A program made the position numbers and the translations under genes. Positions 926-19,931 of a stretch of 64,000 nt of DNA are shown here, piece by piece. This DNA is from a virus: IMG/VR virus record IMGVR_UViG_3300021962_000046, positions 32,001 to 96,000 of that record. One strand, given 5' to 3'. A model generated the notes under the pieces. That model was not told the origin of the DNA and searched no databases. It was given only the letters and a program-made list of their open reading frames with translations. The first letter of the stretch is position 1; each line of letters opens with the position of its first letter.

Positions 926-1579
926 GTTTTCAGAATACACTTTCATTTTATTGAAAATATCTTCGAAATCATTTCTGATAAAGAATGTTGTTCCAACACC
1001 ACTCTTTATTTCAACAGTTTTATAATTTGCTGGAACTACGATCTTATCGTAACTGCACATGCTGACTTCATTTGAATCATGAATGATTACAAAAGGAATG
1101 TTGTTAGCCAATGCTGTATTGGCCAAATCTCCGTTTATAAAAATTGCCGAATCTACGAAAACAACATCAGGATTTTCTGAAGAATATAATGCTTGTGCAT
1201 AACTCTGTAATTCAGAAAGATAAGAAGCATCTACTTTTTCTGGATCTTTCTTTTCAACAATCTGATATTTTACCGCTTCTGATATTGTGTCAGAAACCAC
1301 CCAAAGAACAGAATTCCAATTAGGCAATACTTGCAAAATATTCTTGAAAAAATCGTAATAACTTGGCTGCATGAAATTAGACAAAGCCTCAACGCTTACG
1401 ACTTTGCTGCATTTATCAGCGAAAAACTTAGTCGAATAACCTAGTCCCCATTCCAACAAATTGTTTGGAACATAGAATTTAAAAAATTCTGCCATATGGG
1501 GCAAATGATCTGTATAACGAGTGAATTTTATAATATTTTCATAAACAAAATCTTCTATTTTTTCGAGTTTATCAGTCAT
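917..1579 (-). CDS. Class I SAM-dependent methyltransferase-like protein
   Basis: Motif I-like LLEWGLGYSTKFF, VVSVE, DVVFVDS, IIHD; lies in a glycosyltransferase cluster. Confidence 0.6.
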   Translation of the reverse strand: MTDKLEKIEDFVYENIIKFTRYTDHLPHMAEFFKFYVPNNLLEWGLGYSTKFFADKCSKVVSVEALSNFMQPSYYDFFKNILQVLPNWNSVLWVVSDTISEAVKYQIVEKKDPEKVDASYLSELQSYAQALYSSENPDVVFVDSAIFINGDLANTALANNIPFVIIHDSNEVSMCSYDKIVVPANYKTVEIKSGVGTTFFIRNDFEDIFNKMKVYSENLA

Positions 1580-1593
1580 GTTTTCTCCAAATT

Positions 1594-1623
1594 AAAAAGG
1601 CGCACCCCCTATTGGATGCGCCT
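1594..1623 (-). terminator. Rho-independent terminator-like hairpin
   Basis: aggcgca...tgcgcct stem followed by a T-tract on the minus strand, just downstream of the GT gene. Confidence 0.55.
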
Positions 1624-1631
1624 AAAAATGA

Positions 1632-2510
1632 TTAATTAGACCAAACAGGCTCATCAGTTAGATGCTTGTATTTTTCAAAGCCATCTGGATGAACTTCCAA
1701 AAATCTAACTTTGGCTCTTTCTACAAAGTTTTCTGGCTGATTTCTCTTGAACCAGTTACAAACTGTGTTTGGATTCTTGCCAGTTTCATAATAAGCAACT
1801 AGATAATTATAAATCTTGTCAATAATATCAAGCCTGTAGGTGATTGGCTTGCTTCTTAGGAAGCGATGAATCCATCCCAAAGCAGAATGAAGCATCACCT
1901 TTCCACCATTTCTCCTAACAAGCTCATGGACATATCCTTCCTCACCAGCAAAGCCTGAGAAATTAGGACTAAATCCAGGCCAATATTCTTTTTTCATCAA
2001 GAACATTGCGGTTCCATGCATGGGAATTTCTGAAACTGCTGGTAGTGGCCTGCGTGTATCCCAAATGCCGTAGAAATCTCCACGCCACTTTGGTTCCATA
2101 TGAGTAGCAATGACATCTTTGTTTTCATTGAGCAACGGGCCACACCACATATCCTTGCCAATAAAATTACCATTAATTCCATTCATAATATAATCAATTG
2201 CACCAGGTTGCAAAATAACATGGCTATCAAGCAAAAGAACATATTCACCATCTGCATTTTCAAAAACGCTATTTTTGGCGTGTGCTGGACCTTTTTCTTT
2301 TGGACAATGAACATACTTTGATCCAGAAAGACCACAAAGTTGTTCCAAAGATTCTGTTTTCTTTGGAAGGTCATCACACATTAACAATTGAATTTCTGGC
2401 TTTTCTCTTGAATTTCCTGTATGATACATTCTGAGACAAGATGCTGTCCAAAAGGCACCTTCGATATCATCATGACAAGCCCAACCAATAGTTAATTTAT
2501 ATTTAGACAT
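1632..2510 (-). CDS. Glycosyltransferase family 2 (GT-A fold)
   Basis: LMCDD, GPAHAKN..FENADGEYVLLLDSH (DxH variant of DxD), GFAGEE. Confidence 0.8.
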   Translation of the reverse strand: MSKYKLTIGWACHDDIEGAFWTASCLRMYHTGNSREKPEIQLLMCDDLPKKTESLEQLCGLSGSKYVHCPKEKGPAHAKNSVFENADGEYVLLLDSHVILQPGAIDYIMNGINGNFIGKDMWCGPLLNENKDVIATHMEPKWRGDFYGIWDTRRPLPAVSEIPMHGTAMFLMKKEYWPGFSPNFSGFAGEEGYVHELVRRNGGKVMLHSALGWIHRFLRSKPITYRLDIIDKIYNYLVAYYETGKNPNTVCNWFKRNQPENFVERAKVRFLEVHPDGFEKYKHLTDEPVWSN

Positions 2511-2611
2511 TTGTTTCTCCTATATGTTGGTGTGACTATGCACACATTTTCTTTGAAAATATTATAGCGTCAAAACTATAATAAAAAAAAGACTTAATAG
2601 GAAATATTTAA

Positions 2612-3427
2612 ATGTCAAACTTGCCAACAACTGGATTTATACCCGCTCCTGTTTTTATAAAACCAGAAGAAAAATTTTCAGTATTAAAAAATACAGAAAA
2701 ACCAGCTGTTTCTTGTTATTGCAGCACTTATGGAAGACCTACAAGGCTTCTGGAAAGTTCTATTCAATGTTTTTTGAATCAAGATTATGATGGTCCCAAA
2801 GAGCTTGTTATACTAAATGATTTCAATCAACAAGAGTTGGTTTTTGATCATCCCGAAGTAAGGATTATAAATCATCCCGAAAGAATAAAGCCTCTAGGCA
2901 GAAAATTCAACGAAAATATCAAATTGTGCAAGTATGATATACTTGCCTGTTGGGAAGACGATGATATTTTTCTTCCAAATAGACTTTCTTACAGCATTGC
3001 AAACATGCGTAATGGAATATTCCATACTCATCATGCTTTCTTTGAACAAGCAGAAAAAAGTTTTATAAAATCACAAAATATTTTCCACAGCACACATGTT
3101 TTCACAAGGGAACTTTTTAACCAAGTTGGTGGGTATCCAGAAATAGACCAATGTAGTGTCGATATTTCAATAATGGATAGGTTTAGGCAAGCAGTTGGAA
3201 ATTACACACAAGATATAAATGATACAAAAGATTATGTTTATTGTTATGTTTGGGGTGGCGCACAATCATATCATGGTAGTGGATGGGGAGCCTCAAACAC
3301 AAATGTTTCTGATTCAGCTACAGACATAGTACAGATGCAAATTGGACAAGGCCATGTTCGTACAGGCGTAATAAATCTGGAACCGAAATTAAGATATAAT
3401 TTTTATGATTATCTACCAAGAGATTAA
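2612..3427 (+). CDS. Glycosyltransferase family 2
   Basis: VSCYCSTYGR, FLNQDY, ELVILND, LGRKFN, WEDDD, GGYP motifs. Confidence 0.85.
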   Translation: MSNLPTTGFIPAPVFIKPEEKFSVLKNTEKPAVSCYCSTYGRPTRLLESSIQCFLNQDYDGPKELVILNDFNQQELVFDHPEVRIINHPERIKPLGRKFNENIKLCKYDILACWEDDDIFLPNRLSYSIANMRNGIFHTHHAFFEQAEKSFIKSQNIFHSTHVFTRELFNQVGGYPEIDQCSVDISIMDRFRQAVGNYTQDINDTKDYVYCYVWGGAQSYHGSGWGASNTNVSDSATDIVQMQIGQGHVRTGVINLEPKLRYNFYDYLPRD

Positions 3428-3437
3428 AGGAGATTGA

Positions 3438-4313
3438 ATGTCTAAGTTAGATGAGATTTTTGAAAACAAAATAAACACACCGGGAGATATCTCGGAACAT
3501 CTTTTGACACTTAAAAAATATGCAGAAAGATGTGATGTTGTTGTCGAACTTGGTGTTCGCTGGTTGTGCAGCACCTATGCATTTCTTTCAGCAAGACCAA
3601 AGAAATTGTTGTCATTCGACACAGTACATTACAGGAGTCACGGAGCATCTGAAGAAGATTTAAATGAATCTGTTTCAGAATCGGGCACTAGCTTCGAATT
3701 CTTCCAAGAGAATGTCATCACAACAACAAACATTCCAGAATGTGATCTGTTGTTTATTGATACTCTTCATAGTTACAAACAATTAAAATTAGAACTATAT
3801 CTACATGCTACAAAAGCAAGAAAGTACATAATTTTACACGATGTTGTAACATATGGAAATCAAAACGAAGGAGAAGTTGTTTTGCCTGAAAGTTCTTCAG
3901 AAGAAACAAAAAATTATTTTAATTTATTGGTAGAAAGAAAAGGATTAATGCCAGCCGTAACTGAATTCCTCAATGAAAACAACGAATGGAAAATTTGTGA
4001 ATTTTTCGAAAACAACAATGGCTTATGCGTTTTAGAAAAAGTTCCTGTCAATACTGTAAATGGCTTGCCTGTTACTGTAAATGATGCAACCACAACATTT
4101 GTTGAAACACAAAACAAACCATTTGATACAAACACATGTGTCAAAGAAACGAATGTTGATAGTTCAGAAGTTGTTGCAGAACCAACTGTCACGAAAGAAA
4201 CATATCCAGAATTGCCAGATGTAAGACTTGAAATGCCAGAGAATAATCCAGAGCCACAACCAGAAAAGAAGAGTTTGCTGAAGCGAGTTCTTGGTTGGTT
4301 TGGCTGGAAGTAA
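3438..4313 (+). CDS. Class I SAM-dependent methyltransferase (Methyltransf_24-like) with acidic C-terminal tail
   Basis: VVELGVR..ST, DLLFIDTLHSY, IILHD, NNNGL. Confidence 0.75.
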   Translation: MSKLDEIFENKINTPGDISEHLLTLKKYAERCDVVVELGVRWLCSTYAFLSARPKKLLSFDTVHYRSHGASEEDLNESVSESGTSFEFFQENVITTTNIPECDLLFIDTLHSYKQLKLELYLHATKARKYIILHDVVTYGNQNEGEVVLPESSSEETKNYFNLLVERKGLMPAVTEFLNENNEWKICEFFENNNGLCVLEKVPVNTVNGLPVTVNDATTTFVETQNKPFDTNTCVKETNVDSSEVVAEPTVTKETYPELPDVRLEMPENNPEPQPEKKSLLKRVLGWFGWK

Positions 4314-6308
4314 TCAAGACTTCAAATTATTCAACAATGTTTCGGCCCGTATTCCAGCAATACGGGCTGCTTCATTTATATTTTCCATAATTTTATTTTT
4401 ATCAGTAAAGCCATTTTCATAAAGCTTCTCTGCTTTTATTTTCCCAACACCTTTAATGTCAATAATTTCAACCAGTCTTGCCGGAACACCATGCTGCATC
4501 CTTTTTCCCAGAAGTCTAAAAAAATCTTTCTTGTTCCACTTCTTTGACATTGAATCTATGGCATGTAAAACAGCAACAATCCTTGGAAAATCTTGTTGCA
4601 TATTCTTCATTATTGACGCATATTTCGCATCATATTGACCATACAAAACCTTGTTGTAAAGATAAGCTGTCTTCAATATGTTTTCTGGATAATCTTTTTT
4701 CGCAACACTCTTAACTTTTTTCAAAAAGGAAGACATGGCATATTTGTCATCTTTGTTCAAAGAACCAATAAGATTTTTTGATGTGTTGGATAATGCCAAA
4801 CATACTTCTACATCATCTATGGTTGGTTTTTTAAAAAGAACAGAAAAGTTTCTTGCCCAGCTGGCTATTTGAAGTGGCTCTGCATAGAAAAAAACAGAAA
4901 CTTTACCCAAGCCGGTCAAAACAAAATCCCCGGTAACATCATCTTTCAAAAGTATTCCTGTATTGCACAGTTTCTCAAATGTTATTTCTAGAATGTCTTT
5001 TTTCAATTTCTTGTTTTGGAAAAAAGCCAAAGTTCTTGAGAACCAAACTTCAGCATCTTGTATTGTCTTTATTGTTCCAGAATAAACTTCATAAAGAATA
5101 TGGAACGCAAGTTTTTCATAATCGCCAGCATTAGACAAATCCAACATTCTTGAATGTATTTCTTGCGGTGTCAAAACGATCTTTTGCAACTCCCTTCTTT
5201 TGCTGTTTGGAAAGAAAACATAAGCATCACCTTCGGGATCAAAAGCTGGCCTTCCTGCACGGCCAACCATCTGTAGGATGTCATAAGAAGCAACTATCTC
5301 ATTGCCTCTTGAAATACCCATAATTACAACTCTTCTTGCCGGGAGATTAACACCCCACGCCAAAGTACTTGTTGCAACAATAACACGCATATTTTTATCA
5401 TTCTTAAATGCGTTCTCCAAATTAGCTCTTTGTGTTTTATCCAGATTGGCATTATGAAATTCTGATTTTATTCCACGCCTCATCAATTCTTGTATGACCA
5501 ATTCGCCCATTTTTTTAGTATGAACAAAAACTAAAAATTTATCATTTATAAATCTTTGTATAACTTTGCAACCCTCATCAATTAATTCCAGATAAGGTGC
5601 CCTAATTGCTGATTCATCGTCATAAACACAAGAATGAATGTTTAATTTACATGGCCTGTAAGTACTTCTAAGTATGAAAGTTTCTTTTCCGTTTAAAATG
5701 TAACCCATCCATTTCGCTATATCATCAACATTTGGCATGGTTGCTGACAACAATATTATTCTTGTGGCTGGATTGATTTTGGTTATATTCATCAACGCAG
5801 ATTCAAGGTGATCTCCTCTGCCTTCGACAGTAAGCAAGTGAGATTCATCAACAACAATAACACCACACTCATCGATCCATTTTTTATTTTTCGAAGAAAC
5901 CCTCAATTTATGATTCAACATTTCTGATGTCATAATAATAACATCAGAATCATCAAAGTTAAGTTGTTCGAGATCGCCCTTGTAATCACCTGTAAGGATG
6001 CTTATTTTCAGATCAGAAAAATGATGTTTTTCTGCTGTCCAATCTTGGTACTTTTCGTTTGCCAAGGCTCTCAGAGGGCACAAGAAAATAAATTTCTTCT
6101 TCAATTGTCTTATTGCAAAGCTACCAAACATTTCTGATACAACAGTTTTGCCAGCACTTGTTGATGCTGCCACAAGACCATTGCAATTCTTGTCAACAAA
6201 AGAATAAAGAGAAGATTGAACTGGATTGAATTTTTCAAAAGGAAATTTGGCCCATTTAAATTCTGAAGTTGGGATTAATTCTTGTGCGTCAGTTATGTGA
6301 TTGATCAT
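4314..6308 (-). CDS. Ski2/Hel308-like SF2 DExH helicase
   Basis: Q-motif FNPVQ, TSAGKT, PLRALA, DESH, LSAT, ATSTLAWGVNLPA, QMVGRAGR; C-terminal HhH (IKGVGKIKAEKL). Confidence 0.92.
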   Translation of the reverse strand: MINHITDAQELIPTSEFKWAKFPFEKFNPVQSSLYSFVDKNCNGLVAASTSAGKTVVSEMFGSFAIRQLKKKFIFLCPLRALANEKYQDWTAEKHHFSDLKISILTGDYKGDLEQLNFDDSDVIIMTSEMLNHKLRVSSKNKKWIDECGVIVVDESHLLTVEGRGDHLESALMNITKINPATRIILLSATMPNVDDIAKWMGYILNGKETFILRSTYRPCKLNIHSCVYDDESAIRAPYLELIDEGCKVIQRFINDKFLVFVHTKKMGELVIQELMRRGIKSEFHNANLDKTQRANLENAFKNDKNMRVIVATSTLAWGVNLPARRVVIMGISRGNEIVASYDILQMVGRAGRPAFDPEGDAYVFFPNSKRRELQKIVLTPQEIHSRMLDLSNAGDYEKLAFHILYEVYSGTIKTIQDAEVWFSRTLAFFQNKKLKKDILEITFEKLCNTGILLKDDVTGDFVLTGLGKVSVFFYAEPLQIASWARNFSVLFKKPTIDDVEVCLALSNTSKNLIGSLNKDDKYAMSSFLKKVKSVAKKDYPENILKTAYLYNKVLYGQYDAKYASIMKNMQQDFPRIVAVLHAIDSMSKKWNKKDFFRLLGKRMQHGVPARLVEIIDIKGVGKIKAEKLYENGFTDKNKIMENINEAARIAGIRAETLLNNLKS

Positions 6309-6338
6309 AATTGTATTGTATCAAAAAAACAAAAAAAA

Positions 6339-6362
6339 CAAGCCGGATAAAAATCCGGCTTG
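6339..6362 (-). terminator. Rho-independent terminator
   Basis: Perfect 10-bp stem caagccggat/atccggcttg followed by a long T-tract on the minus strand. Confidence 0.75.
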
Positions 6363-6412
6363 CGATGATTGGATGAAATTGGAATCACCCCCTTAAAATA
6401 AAAAATATCCAA

Positions 6413-6712
6413 TCATGCTAATTGCTCCAGCTTACCACCTCTCTTCTCGTATTCCTTTACACAACACTTGGAAAGTAAATCAAGGCTCCTGTGGAAATCT
6501 TCACTCGTCCTAGATGTTGACAAAATCTTGTTCACATTAAAATCTTCAGAATCTTCATCGAATGTCATCTGCTCAAGGTTCAAAAAAACATCATATAAAT
6601 CATCCTGATATCTCCAATACAACCTACTAGTGATATCTTGCAATTCACTATCAGTCAAAGAATTACAAAAATTTTTAAAAATAACATCAACTTTCTTCTT
6701 GGCACCCTTCAT
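6413..6712 (-). CDS. Hypothetical protein
   Basis: ORF 6413..6784; start moved to MKGAKK (6712), which has GGAG upstream. Confidence 0.55.
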   Translation of the reverse strand: MKGAKKKVDVIFKNFCNSLTDSELQDITSRLYWRYQDDLYDVFLNLEQMTFDEDSEDFNVNKILSTSRTSEDFHRSLDLLSKCCVKEYEKRGGKLEQLA

Positions 6713-16707: not shown

Positions 16708-17268
16708 TTATCCCCCATAAACCAAGTAATCGTGATCGGACAAACTAACTTGTCCACTTCTGACAGGTTTTTCTCTTGTTATCTTTTTACCAAGATTCCT
16801 CTGAGCATTCCAGATGATTTGTTTACAATATGTAAAAAATTTAGTGTCAAATATCAAACTCTTCGTTTTTTGGGGCAATTCATCTGGATTTAAATATATT
16901 AAACAAATCTTGCCCAACAAGTCTTCTTGATAATCACCAAACTTCTGCCTGTTTGCTCCATGTCGGGTTCTGTTGTGCCATAAATTTTGCAGTTCATCTA
17001 TTATCATTCTCACAACATGATTGATTTTTTTGTTTCTTAACTTCTCAAAACAAGAGTCTATGTAAACCTGCCTCTTGTAATAAGAGCCTGCACGAATAAC
17101 AGATACCATCAATTCCTGATTGAAATCATCCAGATCGAATTGATGATTGTTTGCCGAGTTCTTTCGGTTCAACTGCCAAGATGCGTAATAACACAATTGA
17201 CCAAACTTCTTATCCAACAAATTGTACTCATCTGCGTTTATTGGAAAATTCTTGTATATAGAACTCAA
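16708..17268 (-). CDS. Putative sigma-70 region-2-like protein
   Basis: DLDDFNQELMVSVIRA ... KFFTYCKQIIWN...RNL resembles sigma regions 2.2-2.4 with an insertion. Confidence 0.45.
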   Translation of the reverse strand: MSSIYKNFPINADEYNLLDKKFGQLCYYASWQLNRKNSANNHQFDLDDFNQELMVSVIRAGSYYKRQVYIDSCFEKLRNKKINHVVRMIIDELQNLWHNRTRHGANRQKFGDYQEDLLGKICLIYLNPDELPQKTKSLIFDTKFFTYCKQIIWNAQRNLGKKITREKPVRSGQVSLSDHDYLVYGG

Positions 17269-18581
17269 TTTTTCGCCTTTCTCTTTAGTTTCTGCATTTT
17301 GTCCAAACTTTTACCAGCCATAACCGATACGGAAAGTTTTAACTCAGGTATCAATTCTGTTTGTTTTTCCAAAATACTTCTGGCAGCCATATATGCGTCT
17401 TGCATATCTTTTTGCCTGACTGCCAGACAATAACCATCATGAACGCTGTAAACAATCTGATACAAATTGCTACTCTGCTTGTATAATTTTACCAAAGATT
17501 CCAAACAAATCAAAGCAGCAGGTGATTGAATTGCAAAATTCCTTGCCTTATAAGATTCTTTTGAATCAAAAAATCTTTTTCTACCAAATTTGTCTTTTAC
17601 AAATTCATTCTTGGATGCCAAATCTTGATGCCCCTCAACATAGTCAAAACTTTTACTAAAAGTTTTTCTTACTATATCAAAATAGATTTGTGCTTGATCG
17701 AATGATATTTCTAGATTTCTGGCAAGACCGGCTGCTGTTTGTCCATATATAATCGGCAAAAATGTTTTTTTTGCTATATCTTTTGCATTTTCGCTGGCTA
17801 CATTAAACACCTTTTGAAAAATAATCTCATAAACAGAATCAGAATTATTATTGATTATATCTTGCAACACCTCATCCTCTGCAAGACAGGCAAGAACACC
17901 TACTTCCATGCTTCGATAATCAAATTGAAAAAAGATATGATCTTGATTTAACAATCTAAAATTCGACTTGTAATCACCCAAAGAATGCGGGTTGTAACAA
18001 CGCTTCATCTCACAACTACATGACAACCTGCCGTTTTCTTGACCCTCAATGTGATAGTTCGGATAAACCAATTGACCTATATTATCATCTATCAAACAAT
18101 AACTCTCTATAGCTGGAATAACTTCGCAAATAATCGGCTGAAAAACCTTCTTGTAAATGCTTATCAACACCTTGTTGGTAACCCATTCCTTAAAATGCCT
18201 TTCTTGCCTTGAAATTTCGCTTATAGACGATTCTTTTGCCAAATATGACTCGTACCACAATAAATCAAAAACATTCTTTAAAACGATGTTTTTGCCAGTC
18301 AGGCGGGTAAAGAGGGTGAATATCTGTTTCCAGTCATGTCCAATCAGAGGAATGTTCTTCTTGGATACAAAAGCTTCAAATAATTTAAGGAATAAAAACA
18401 CATTTTCGGAATGAAGATTCATTTGAACCATTTTGCCAGAAATGGTTTCTATCTTGAATTTGACGAATATCTTGGATTTGCTGGTAGAATCTATTTTCTC
18501 TGGATTCCAAGAACAAAAAATGTAACTCTCTGATTTCAATAATTCATCCAAGGATCTGCTCAAATCTTCAAGGTTGGCCAT
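17265..18581 (-). CDS. Compact family A DNA polymerase (thumb-less, degenerate 3'-5' exonuclease)
   Basis: ENGRLS; motif A FDYRSMEVGVLA; motif B AKKTFLPIIYG; FGRKR; ARNFAIQS; motif C VHDG. Confidence 0.85.
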   Translation of the reverse strand: MANLEDLSRSLDELLKSESYIFCSWNPEKIDSTSKSKIFVKFKIETISGKMVQMNLHSENVFLFLKLFEAFVSKKNIPLIGHDWKQIFTLFTRLTGKNIVLKNVFDLLWYESYLAKESSISEISRQERHFKEWVTNKVLISIYKKVFQPIICEVIPAIESYCLIDDNIGQLVYPNYHIEGQENGRLSCSCEMKRCYNPHSLGDYKSNFRLLNQDHIFFQFDYRSMEVGVLACLAEDEVLQDIINNNSDSVYEIIFQKVFNVASENAKDIAKKTFLPIIYGQTAAGLARNLEISFDQAQIYFDIVRKTFSKSFDYVEGHQDLASKNEFVKDKFGRKRFFDSKESYKARNFAIQSPAALICLESLVKLYKQSSNLYQIVYSVHDGYCLAVRQKDMQDAYMAARSILEKQTELIPELKLSVSVMAGKSLDKMQKLKRKAKN

Positions 18582-18693
18582 CAGAAGTTCACCTCAGTTC
18601 TGTTTCCACTTAACCTAACATAGAAGCCCCAAAAAACACAAATAAGTACTGGAAATAATAATCTACAAAATTTATCTTTTATATGTCCATACC

Positions 18694-19110
18694 GGGGGGC
18701 GGGTCTAAGGTGGTGAAGAAAAAAAATATAATAATGACTTTTTATCATTATTATGGGTTTTTTTTCGATACCACTCTAGATTTGAGATCAGTATTGCTAG
18801 TGATGTGCATCATTTGATGATATCCTTAGCTTTACTGAATTGTGTGTTTGGGTAACACACAGTTAACTTGTCGGTTTGAGAATCCTAACCGTACATCATG
18901 TCTCAACTTGAAAAGTTTAATTTTCAATTTGAGAACAGCCCGCCTTAATTTGGCTGATGTAGGCTCACCTAGTCTCATGCCGGTTCATTAGGTTCCCGTA
19001 TTACCTAATGGGTCTAGCAGGGTGTACCGCCCCAGCAAGGTTTATATTGCTCAAATCTCACGAATTGAACTCAGTAACTTTTCAGGCCGACAATTCGCCT
19101 TACTAGGTTA
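18694..19110. ncRNA. Candidate large structured non-coding RNA (or structured ssDNA origin); strand unresolved
   Basis: At least eight hairpins plus long-range complementary segments in an ORF-free intergenic region (see findings). Confidence 0.5.
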
Positions 19111-19220
19111 CAAACAAAATAATAACAATTATAAAAATAAAAATCAAACTAATTGGCGAAAAGTCATAACTACCTGTATGATTTCTTTTGAGAAACATAA
19201 ACTCAAAGGAAGTAAACTAA

Positions 19221-19931
19221 ATGGAAATATTCATGAAATATGAACCAGAAATAGCGATCAATTTGAATATGACCGAAGAAGAAAGCATGGCTTACTACCT
19301 GCTCTGTTTCTACATCAATAAAACCAGAGAACTTATTCCAAATTATCGCCATCCAAGAATCACAACAAAAATAGAAAAACTTAAAACTAGCCTCGCATTT
19401 AAACACATGATGAAATTTGTTCGTGAAAAAAGAAAAAAATTCAAAGATCCAAAGTATTTGGAAATTTACATACTTGCACAAATAGTCATTATGAAAAAAC
19501 AACACGAAATGGGAAACAACGCATTAGTTGATTTTCAAATGCTACATGGTGAAGGGGCAAACAGAAGGTGGGAAATCTGGAAGAAGATGTACAGAGATAA
19601 AAATATGGTTAGTGATATTAACTATACATTCACAAAAACAAATATAGAGAATGAATTTAACAAAACCATAAATACACTCAATAAAATACTAGGTGATGAT
19701 AAAAGTTTAGAAAATTATGTTACTCATGCAAACGAAATACTAACAAACATAATTATAAAAAGAATAAGTCATATGTATGTCTACTTTTCAAAGTGGATTA
19801 AGAAACTTCCAGAAGAAATACGAGGCGAGATAAAAGACATAATCAACACAGATGCCTTGAAAACTTTTGACTTATCAGCTGTAAAAAAATGCTATGAGAA
19901 AAATTTTGAATATGAAATTAATATGTCATGA
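19221..19931 (+). CDS. Hypothetical protein
   Basis: 236-aa ORF divergent from the replication operon, with an AAGGA SD-like sequence. Confidence 0.7.
   Translation: MEIFMKYEPEIAINLNMTEEESMAYYLLCFYINKTRELIPNYRHPRITTKIEKLKTSLAFKHMMKFVREKRKKFKDPKYLEIYILAQIVIMKKQHEMGNNALVDFQMLHGEGANRRWEIWKKMYRDKNMVSDINYTFTKTNIENEFNKTINTLNKILGDDKSLENYVTHANEILTNIIIKRISHMYVYFSKWIKKLPEEIRGEIKDIINTDALKTFDLSAVKKCYEKNFEYEINMS

What the first reader, a model, noticed from the sequence alone, without database searches (positions are those of the whole stretch)
18694..19110. ~400-nt multi-hairpin non-coding element directly upstream of the compact PolA operon
Seen: the 640-bp gap between polA and the divergent gene is the largest non-coding gap in a tightly packed window, and it is almost entirely self-complementary. 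Local stems: a ~77-nt hairpin 18704-18780 (ataataatga/tcattattat inside gaaaaaaaa/ttttttttc inside gtggt/accac); tcagta/tactga (18788/18833); tgtgtgtt/aacacaca (18841/18854); cggtt/aaccg (18872/18887); tacatca/tgatgta (18892/18955), which encloses a 14-bp hairpin 18901-18934 and agcc/ggct as a 3-way junction; cattaggt/acctaatg (18986/19003); cgaattg/caattcg (19061/19091). Long-range pairs: agatttgag/ctcaaatct (18778/19050), ggggcgg/ccgcccc (18696/19027), ttgtcgg/ccgacaa (18868/19087), acctagt/actaggt (18967/19102); some cross each other (pseudoknot or alternative folds). G-U wobbles mostly favour the + strand, but a minus-strand TATAAT at 19133-19128 could drive it as a polA leader. I do not recognise tmRNA, RNase P or intron signatures. 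Inference: an undescribed large ncRNA or structured ssDNA origin, possibly a partner (template, primer or scaffold) of the neighbouring atypical polymerase.
Basis: partly seen in the sequence, partly recalled or inferred. Interest (0 to 1): 0.82.

Follow-up and report, generated by a model that had tools for sequence, protein, structure and literature searches.

The report
Large knotted RNA before phage polymerase
The gap upstream of a large freshwater phage's DNA polymerase gene encodes a previously undescribed RNA of about 420 bases, folded with three pseudoknots and kept in the same place in dozens of distantly related phages, whose job, probably control or start-up of the replication genes, is still unknown.

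Summary
Window 18582-19220 is the largest ORF-free stretch in the window. It folds far better than shuffled sequence (z -7.4 and -7.9) and matches no Rfam family, tRNA or tmRNA.

The element is conserved upstream of polA in at least 35 metagenomic phage loci, where polA is only 30-52% identical.

Comparative analysis gives ten conserved helices, three of them pseudoknots:
- 35 of 50 pairs show compensatory changes.
- No shuffle out of 500 reached the observed values.

Several of its long-range pairs occur only in this window or are contradicted by covariation.

The RNA most likely lies on the minus strand, sense to polA (about 85%). A sigma-70-like promoter, conserved in the close clade, sits 18 nt before the first hairpin. 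The fold z-score is lower on that strand in 12 of 13 sequences, and that strand is purine-rich.

The RNA runs from about 19112 to 18689, roughly 424 nt, and ends about 100 nt before the polA start. It stays beside polA even where other genes intervene.

My best reading is a new class of large structured RNA serving the replication operon, probably in cis as a leader. A trans-acting or priming role is not excluded. The function is inferred, not shown.

The parts
19142..19147 (-). -35 box TTGATT of the promoter that drives the RNA
   Evidence: The promoter scan gives TTGATT, 17 nt, TATTAT with TG before the -10. Homologs carry TTGnnn 15-18 nt before their -10.
19119..19124 (-). -10 box TATTAT with an extended TG at 19126-27
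   Evidence: All 15 close homologs have TAnAAT or TAnAcT about 18 nt before P9. The nearly invariant T, A, A, T columns 10-15 of alignment A9 show the same box.
18689..19112 (-). the structured RNA, about 424 nt, from the inferred start (about 19112) to the last conserved helix strand (P1, 18689)
   Evidence: Fold z-scores, conservation and covariation. The ends are inferred from the promoter and the conserved helices, not measured.
19084..19100 (-). P9 hairpin (AGGC/GCCT as written on the + strand); its loop carries one strand of PK2
   Evidence: 100% paired, 2 of 4 pairs covary.
18868..18873 (-). PK2 partner strand (TTGTCG on the + strand), pairs with the P9 loop at 19088-19093
   Evidence: 98.8% paired, 3 of 5 pairs covary: GTGTC/GACAC, TTGAC/GTCAA, TTAAC/GTTAA.
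19039..19043 (-). P1 strand (GGTTT on the + strand), pairs with 18689-18693
   Evidence: AAACC/GGTTT in most homologs. Weak: 62% paired by column because of register shifts.
18978..19037 (-). three-way junction: H7 (18978-83 with 19032-37) enclosing hairpins P8 (18986-19010) and P10 (19011-19031)
   Evidence: This is the core of covariance models R1 and R2. 15 of 16 pairs have compensatory changes and no shuffle out of 500 matched. H7 has internal U.G pairs only when read on the - strand (alignment).
18994..18998 (-). P8 loop strand of PK1, pairs with 18693-18697
   Evidence: CGGG/CCCG changes to CGAG/CTCG in other clades, including distant ones.
18877..18977 (-). H6 (18877-81 with 18973-77) and P5 (18889-98 with 18955-63), flanking a conserved purine-rich internal loop (GAGGUGAGCC and GGUUAGGA on the RNA) and enclosing P4
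   Evidence: H6 is 100% paired and 4 of 4 pairs covary. In P5, 3 of 5 pairs covary. The loop letters are invariant.
18901..18934 (-). P4 hairpin, variable in sequence and length
   Evidence: A hairpin is present at this place in every homolog inspected.
18938..18944 (-). H1 strand (GCCCGCC on the + strand), pairs with 18698-18704; a pseudoknot across P5/H6
   Evidence: 92% paired, 5 of 7 pairs covary: GGCGGG, GGCAGG, GGCTGG, CAGGGG, GGCTGA, each with its complement.
18704..18780 (-). P2 long hairpin. In the AT-rich clade the apical hairpin is followed on the RNA by a run of 5-9 U.
   Evidence: The base helix covaries: TCAAGGAG/CTCTTTGA, CCAAG/CTTGG, TCTTAAAGA/TCTTTAAGA. The U-run is absent in GC-richer clades.
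18786..18862 (-). P3 region: two hairpins specific to this window; other members have one, different hairpin or none
17265..18581 (-). compact family A DNA polymerase gene, first gene after the RNA
   Evidence: Pfam DNA_pol_A, E 1e-28. 145 homologs.
19221..19931 (+). divergent conserved all-alpha protein (true start probably 19233) with its own promoter-like site at 19153-19182
   Evidence: Alignment A4, promoter scan, AF2 model with pLDDT 85 and no clear fold match.

Best explanation
The gap encodes a new, large structured RNA of about 424 nt on the minus strand, the same sense as polA.

Shown:
- A fold of ten conserved helices: hairpins P9, P8, P10, P4 and P2; helices P1, H7, H6 and P5; and three pseudoknots, namely H1, PK1 (P8 loop to the 3' tail) and PK2 (P9 loop to a central joining strand).
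- This fold is maintained by compensatory changes across a wide clade of large phages.
- In the close clade it always sits directly downstream of a sigma-70-like promoter.
- It always lies about 100 nt or less upstream of the polymerase gene.

Inferred: host RNA polymerase starts about 11 nt before P9 and transcribes the RNA toward polA. The RNA then acts in cis as the leader of the replication operon (polA, a 186-aa gene, a DnaB-like helicase and further genes). Whether the compact pseudoknotted fold forms would decide how much full-length, translatable message is made. The conserved purine-rich internal loop and the three-way junction are the likely site where a ligand or a phage protein is sensed.
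For: Structure is real:
- z -7.4 and -7.9 in the window.
- On a MAFFT alignment that was not fitted to the structure, 35 of 50 pairs have changes on both sides against 20.8 in shuffles. 86.5% of cells are paired, against 71.6% in shuffles and 32-47% with slid partners. No shuffle out of 500 reached the observed values.
- In the core, 15 of 16 pairs are compensatory.

Conservation:
- nhmmer and blastn find the element at the same place in the close clade.
- Models R1 and R2 find it, always polA-sense and 300-500 nt before polA, in clades whose polA is only 30-37% identical. These include members not used for training (30-42 bits).
- PK1 and H1 covary there too.

Strand:
- A -10 box is conserved in all 15 close homologs, and most also have a -35 box, 18 nt before P9 on the minus strand.
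- The z-score is lower on the polA-sense strand in 12 of 13 sequences.
- The polA-sense strand is purine-rich.
- H7 carries internal U.G pairs only on that strand.
- The divergent ORF has its own promoter-like site outside the element.

Linkage to polA: the RNA stays next to polA where other genes separate it from the 230-aa ORF, as in L018 and L024. It is present as a single copy per record.

Not coding.
Against: - No transcript data could be obtained, so strand, ends and expression are all inferred.
- Wobble counts in the conserved helices do not decide the strand: 15 G-U against 22 A-C, and 26 against 13 in the model-fitted core.
- Promoter-like sites also lie between the RNA and polA, most consistently in one subclade. 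Such a promoter would bypass a leader-based control and fits a separate RNA gene better.
- There is no conserved intrinsic terminator, no conserved leader peptide, and no visible pairing with the polA ribosome site, so no expression platform has been identified.
- At about 420 nt with three pseudoknots, it is larger than any known protein-binding operator and larger than most riboswitches.
Confidence: 0.45

Rival explanations
1. It is a stand-alone, trans-acting RNA made from its own promoter that works with the replication machinery. It could be an origin or primer transcript extended by the adjacent family A polymerase, in the manner of ColE1 RNA II. Alternatively it could be an RNA subunit or scaffold of the compact polymerase.
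For: - It has its own conserved promoter.
- Promoter-like sites between the RNA and polA suggest separate units.
- Its size and tertiary complexity are typical of ribozymes and RNP RNAs rather than operators.
- Synteny with a polymerase of the family that extends RNA II is strict.
- The neighbouring all-alpha protein gives weak fold matches (Z 4.2-6.4) to AAA+ lid domains, including those of clamp-loader and initiator proteins, and to a phage helicase-loader protein.
Against: - No terminator or defined 3' end was found.
- GC skew follows gene orientation and shows no turn at the element.
- A 595-kb phage with a related polymerase lacks the RNA, so the enzyme family does not need it.
- Nothing tested here bears on binding or priming.
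Confidence: 0.25
2. The RNA is on the plus strand, and is the long 5' leader or partner RNA of the divergent 236-aa protein.
For: - The ORF follows the element within 35-130 nt in the close clade.
- The window's own MFE is lower on the + strand.
- A few G.U pairs appear only on the + strand, in the P2 base and in H1 of L039.
Against: - No conserved -10 box lies at the left edge of the element, while a conserved one faces the other way.
- The ORF has its own promoter-like site downstream of the element.
- z-scores favour the other strand in 12 of 13 sequences.
- The + strand is pyrimidine-rich.
- In L018 and L024 the ORF is separated from the RNA by other genes, while the RNA remains at polA.
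Confidence: 0.1
3. It acts as folded single-stranded DNA, for example a single-strand initiation signal or origin, rather than as RNA.
For: - The helices are almost purely Watson-Crick on both strands: about 2% G-T or A-C among 946 pairs.
- It lies inside the replication module.
Against: - Three long-range pseudoknots with covariation and a conserved promoter aimed into the element fit a transcript better.
- There is no skew turn.
- No rolling-circle initiator gene turned up among the neighbouring genes whose families were scanned.
Confidence: 0.05

Closest known systems
Large structured bacterial and phage RNAs of unknown function (GOLLD, ROOL, OLE, HEARO, raiA)
   Same: It is several hundred nucleotides long, has many helices with covariation and pseudoknots, was found in environmental and phage sequence, and its biochemical role is not evident from sequence.
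   Different: It matches none of their Rfam models, even at E up to 10 in the window and E up to 1 in eight homolog loci. It is tied to one gene context, directly upstream of a family A polymerase, rather than to tRNA clusters or IscB/IsrB genes.
Structured 5' leaders and riboswitches with pseudoknotted aptamers (glmS ribozyme, cobalamin and lysine riboswitches, T-box leaders)
   Same: It is promoter-proximal, sense to the downstream gene, compact in fold with tertiary pairings, and has a conserved internal loop that could be a binding pocket.
   Different: It is two to four times larger. No conserved terminator, anti-terminator or ribosome-site sequestering helix was found. Promoter-like sites lie between it and the gene.
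ColE1 RNA II primer
   Same: It is a folded transcript of about 400-550 nt from a sigma-70 promoter, and it is functionally linked to a family A DNA polymerase.
   Different: There is no sequence relation. No evidence was found for an R-loop, RNase H processing or an origin here, and the skew gives no support.
T4/RB69 gp43 translational operator and the gp32 leader pseudoknot
   Same: It is a phage replication gene preceded by structured RNA.
   Different: From my own knowledge, those operators are 40-100 nt with a single hairpin or pseudoknot. This element is about 424 nt with ten helices, and it ends about 100 nt before the start codon.

Membership tests
Any Rfam 15 family (including tmRNA, RNase P, group I/II introns, GOLLD, ROOL, HEARO, OLE, raiA, T-box, known riboswitches) | A score at or above the family's gathering threshold against its covariance model | tested here: not met
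   No match at gathering score anywhere in the 64-kb window. The best sub-threshold matches were miRNA and snoRNA noise on the AT-rich hairpin. Eight homolog loci gave nothing on the element either.
tRNA / tmRNA | A tRNA-like acceptor/T-arm and a tag reading frame detectable by ARAGORN | tested here: not met
   ARAGORN found no genes in the window.
Transcription-attenuating riboswitch or leader | A conserved intrinsic terminator (GC-rich stem plus U-tract) downstream of the sensing domain, with a competing anti-terminator | tested here: inconclusive
   In the AT-rich clade the apical hairpin of P2 is always followed by 5-9 U on the polA-sense strand (alignment). But the stems are AT-rich, the scan calls no terminator, the U-run is missing in GC-richer clades, and three conserved helix strands lie after it.
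Leader-peptide attenuator | A conserved short ORF in the leader | tested here: not met
   No ORF is conserved in position or length upstream of polA across 15 homologs.
ColE1 RNA II-type primer / R-loop origin | A persistent RNA-DNA hybrid at a defined origin, RNase H processing, and extension by the polymerase | not testable with these tools
   Only indirect data are available: GC skew follows gene orientation with no turn at the element.
Single-stranded DNA origin (sso or G4-type) | Function as ssDNA in a rolling-circle or ssDNA replicon | tested here: inconclusive
   The helices are nearly all Watson-Crick, which is compatible. However, the conserved promoter and pseudoknots favour RNA, and the replicon is a large dsDNA phage.
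Guide or omega-type RNA of a neighbouring nuclease, or retron/DRT template RNA | An adjacent IscB/TnpB/IS110/RT-type protein | tested here: not met
   The neighbours are a family A polymerase and an all-alpha 236-aa protein with no Pfam hit, only a marginal hit (E 0.0018) to a PHROG of unknown function, and no nuclease or RT fold.

The most novel reading that the evidence does not exclude
The RNA is a functional partner of the unusually compact family A polymerase encoded right behind it. It could be a dedicated origin or primer RNA, or an RNA subunit that supplies what the small enzyme lacks. That would make this an RNA-dependent start-up of DNA replication in a clade of very large phages.
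Probability: 0.12. Interest if true: 0.92.

Novelty: categorically new. Interest (0 to 1): 0.78.

Why it matters
Natural RNAs of more than 400 nt with intricate, covariation-supported tertiary folds are rare. From my own knowledge, only about a dozen classes are known. Each one studied so far has turned out to be a ribozyme, an RNP core, an unusual regulator or an RNA-only assembly.

This one is well defined: ten helices, three pseudoknots and invariant loops. It is anchored to one clear biological context, the start of the replication operon of large freshwater phages. That makes it directly testable.

- If it is a sensor, it would show what signal a large phage reads before it commits to replication.
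- If it works with the polymerase, it would be a new way to start or organise DNA synthesis.

It also gives a ready covariance model for annotating a gap that gene callers leave empty or fill with spurious ORFs.

Tried and rejected
Tools that gave nothing or were unavailable:
- blastn against cultured and GenBank phages found no match to the element.
- The first protein-pattern scan with the single polA sequence found nothing. The alignment-based scans worked.
A shorter core model was used instead.

Hypotheses and leads rejected:
- Recoded coding region: rejected.
- Leader peptide: rejected.
- The 9-bp long-range pair agatttgag/ctcaaatct is not conserved.
- ggggcgg/ccgcccc is contradicted by the covarying H1 and PK1.
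- RNAalifold run on whole MAFFT alignments recovered only 3 helices, because variable hairpins break the alignment. The helices were therefore derived by column-pair scans and by inspection of each sequence.
- Of the 19 genome contigs matches to the P9 motif, 18 were chance.

Neighbouring 236-aa protein:
- Foldseek against the PDB gave no match.
- The wide structural search gave only Z 6.4 or lower to AAA+ lid domains, which is within noise for helical proteins.
- The protein atlas gave no usable hit.

Literature:
- The large IMG/VR survey of candidate phage RNAs never mentions a polymerase in its text, and its supplementary files are not held, so I could not check whether it lists this motif.
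- A 2026 preprint on mining non-coding elements does not cover this RNA.

Full report
**What is there**

The window is part of a 106.6-kb IMG/VR virus record that CheckV rates 21% complete.

The finding lies in the gap between two genes:
- a compact family A DNA polymerase gene (17265-18581, minus strand; Pfam DNA_pol_A, E 1e-28)
- a divergent 236-aa ORF (19221-19931, plus strand)

This gap is the largest ORF-free stretch in the window: 621 nt against 319 nt for the next largest. Every frame on both strands carries at least two kinds of stop codon, so no single-codon recoding makes it coding.

The 426-nt core folds much better than dinucleotide shuffles on both strands: z -7.39 on the + strand and -7.94 on the - strand, with no shuffle out of 100 as good.

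ARAGORN finds no tRNA or tmRNA. Rfam 15 gives no match at gathering score anywhere in the window, and only noise at E up to 10 in the region.

**Conservation**

The polymerase has 145 homologs in the protein collection, none of them informatively named. Scans with an alignment of these proteins fetched 27 viral and 34 metagenome loci. Judging by their contig names these look like lake and other freshwater samples; that habitat is my reading, not a tool result.

Nearly all of the viral loci with sequence upstream of polA show a gap of 430-630 nt there.

- blastn finds blocks of 75-86% nucleotide identity at the same place in loci whose polymerases are only 44-51% identical as proteins.
- nhmmer profiles recover the element in all members of this close clade.
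- A degenerate pattern for the P9 hairpin finds only these contigs in IMG/VR, once each.
- The window's own record has a single copy.

A covariance model of the core (R1: 87 positions covering H7, P10 and P8) scores the close clade at 50-96 bits. It also finds full-length, polA-sense matches 300-450 nt upstream of polA in clades with 30-37% polymerase identity.

A second model that includes those matches (R2) finds six further loci it had not seen, at 30-42 bits, again in the same place and on the same strand.

Four more loci (L014, L026, L053, L055) each share one or more short motifs (a GUACUCCC hairpin, an ACGGG loop, GGUUUAAGA) but do not score.

One copy lies on a 271-kb contig binned with an Acidimicrobiaceae MAG. 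It has the same gene order and 33% local GC. That may be a host clue or a binning artefact.

A 595-kb uncultured huge phage (LR756511.1) has a 29%-identical polymerase, but the sequence upstream reads as coding and there is no RNA.

**The fold**

RNAalifold on whole alignments recovered little, because variable hairpins break the alignment. I therefore scanned all column pairs for stacked complementary columns. I then inspected each sequence between conserved anchors and searched each helix without gaps, scoring G-U and A-C alike.

The architecture below is written 5' to 3' on the polA-sense RNA, with window coordinates:

- P9 hairpin: 19100-19084
- a variable hairpin region
- P1: 19043-39 with 18693-89
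- a three-way junction of H7 (19037-32 with 18983-78), P10 (19031-11) and P8 (19010-18986)
- H6: 18977-73 with 18881-77
- a conserved purine-rich internal loop (GAGGUGAGCC opposite GGUUAGGA)
- P5: 18963-55 with 18898-89
- P4 hairpin: 18934-01
- the variable P3 region: 18862-18786
- the long P2 hairpin: 18780-04

Three pseudoknots tie it together:

| Pseudoknot | Strand 1 | Strand 2 |
|---|---|---|
| H1 | 18944-38 | 18704-18698 |
| PK1 | P8 loop, 18998-94 | 18697-93 |
| PK2 | P9 loop, 19093-88 | 18873-68 |

These ten helices were counted on a MAFFT alignment of 16 sequences that was not fitted to the structure:

| Measure | Observed | Shuffled | Slid partners |
|---|---|---|---|
| Cells paired | 86.5% | 71.6% | 32-47% |
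| Pairs changed on both sides (of 50) | 35 | 20.8 | 12-19 |
| Shuffles (of 500) reaching the observed value, any measure | 0 | – | – |

- H6 is 100% paired, and all four of its pairs covary.
- H1 is 92% paired, and five of its seven pairs covary.
- PK2 is 98.8% paired.

In the model-fitted core of 25 sequences, 15 of 16 pairs are compensatory.

Covariation extends to the distant clades. The P8 loop ACGGGA goes with a CCCCG tail and ACGAGA goes with CCTCG. H1 becomes GGCTGA/TCAGCC.

**Which strand**

Wobble counts in the conserved helices do not decide. They gave 15 G-U against 22 A-C among 946 pairs, and 26 against 13 in favour of the minus strand in the model-fitted core.

Four other lines agree on the minus, polA-sense strand:

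1. **Promoter.**
   - Every close homolog has a TAnAAT-type -10 box on that strand, about 18 nt before P9. Most also have TTGnnn 15-18 nt further upstream.
   - In the window this is TTGATT (19147-42), then 17 nt, then TATTAT (19124-19) with an extended TG.
   - The reverse complement of this box does not fit a -10.
   - Its distance to P9 is fixed, whereas its distance to the divergent ORF varies.
2. **Fold z-score.** It is lower on the polA-sense strand in 12 of 13 sequences tested, drawn from close and distant clades.
3. **Composition.** That strand is purine-rich in most members tested (G>C in 17 of 20 sequences, A>U in 19 of 20), as structured RNAs usually are.
4. **H7 wobbles.** H7 has one or two internal U.G pairs on that strand in the window, L032, L059 and L003. 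On the other strand these would be C-A mismatches.

In addition, the 236-aa ORF has its own promoter-like site (TTGGCG 19153 ... TATGAT 19182), back to back with the RNA promoter.

I put the minus strand at about 85%.

**Context and function**

The RNA stays next to polA even where other genes separate polA from the 230-aa ORF, as in L018 and L024. The link is therefore to the polymerase operon: polA, a 186-aa gene, a DnaB-like helicase, then a dCMP deaminase-like gene and others, all on the minus strand.

- No leader peptide is conserved.
- In the AT-rich clade the apical hairpin of P2 is always followed by 5-9 U on the RNA, which looks like a weak intrinsic terminator.
  - However, the stems are AT-rich.
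  - The scan calls no terminator.
  - The U-run is absent in GC-richer clades.
  - Three conserved helix strands lie downstream of it. I therefore do not rely on it.
- Promoter-like sites occur between the RNA and polA, most consistently 31-45 nt after the RNA in one subclade. This leaves open that the RNA is a separate gene.
- GC skew tracks gene orientation and turns near 24 kb, not at the element.
- No family B polymerase is present in the record.
- The 236-aa neighbour is a confident all-alpha model (pLDDT 85) with no convincing fold match.

**Verdict**

The element is a real, conserved, pseudoknotted RNA that belongs to no described family. I found no description of it in two searches of the paper library. 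The large IMG/VR survey of candidate phage RNAs never mentions a polymerase in its text, and its tables were not available.

My estimates:
- A cis-acting leader of the replication operon, made from its own early-type promoter: 0.45.
- A trans-acting or priming RNA that works with the polymerase: 0.25.
- A plus-strand RNA: 0.1.
- A single-stranded DNA signal: 0.05.

Strand, transcript ends and function are inferences. The structure and its conservation are shown.

Noticed in passing
window 17265-18581 (polA); alignment A1: The compact 438-aa polymerase family keeps motif A (D221, E226) and motif B (K271, Y279, G280). It has an invariant H381-D382-G383 where, from my own knowledge, Pol I enzymes have HDE. 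Pfam matches only profile positions 107-379, so the region corresponding to the first 106 profile positions and the N-terminal 170 residues are unexplained.
   Followed up: partly
L081 (contig CAYVOK010000001.1, 271 kb, Acidimicrobiaceae MAG), 1335-6707: This contig carries the whole module (helicase, 186-aa gene, polA, RNA, 236-aa ORF, 286-aa gene) at 33% GC. It is either a large phage genome binned with its host or a mis-binned contig, and it may be a host clue.
   Followed up: partly
L091 = LR756511.1 391426-397649: A 595-kb uncultured huge phage encodes the nearest GenBank relative of this polymerase (29% identity over 93% of the query). The sequence upstream of its polA reads as coding, and there is no RNA element.
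   Followed up: yes
window 18962-18972 and 18592-18598: On the RNA, the conserved internal loop reads GAGGUGA. In this window that is the same heptamer as polA's own Shine-Dalgarno sequence (GAGGTGA, 8 nt before the ATG). No start codon follows the loop copy, and whether it mimics a ribosome-binding site is untested.
   Followed up: no
window 19221-19931 (+) and homologs in 38 loci: The divergent ORF is a conserved all-alpha protein of unknown function, and its true start is probably the MKYEP at 19233. It sits as a single plus-strand gene inside a minus-strand replication module and overlaps the end of the next gene by 14 nt.
   Followed up: partly
L003 4942-5015 (-): In one relative, a tRNA gene (70 bits) lies just downstream of the polA and 186-aa gene pair. 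The window itself has no tRNA.
   Followed up: no
L024 2470-2778 (+), L018 2395-2742 (-): ORFs of 102-115 aa that a mechanical ORF list places in this gap overlap the RNA hits in relatives. They are probably spurious.
   Followed up: partly
window 18660-18689 (-): There is a second promoter-like site, TGGACA, 18 nt, TAGATT, directly after the RNA's last helix. Relatives have similar sites, for example L007 with TTGGTT, 16 nt, TATAAT, and one subclade has them 31-45 nt after the RNA.
   Followed up: partly
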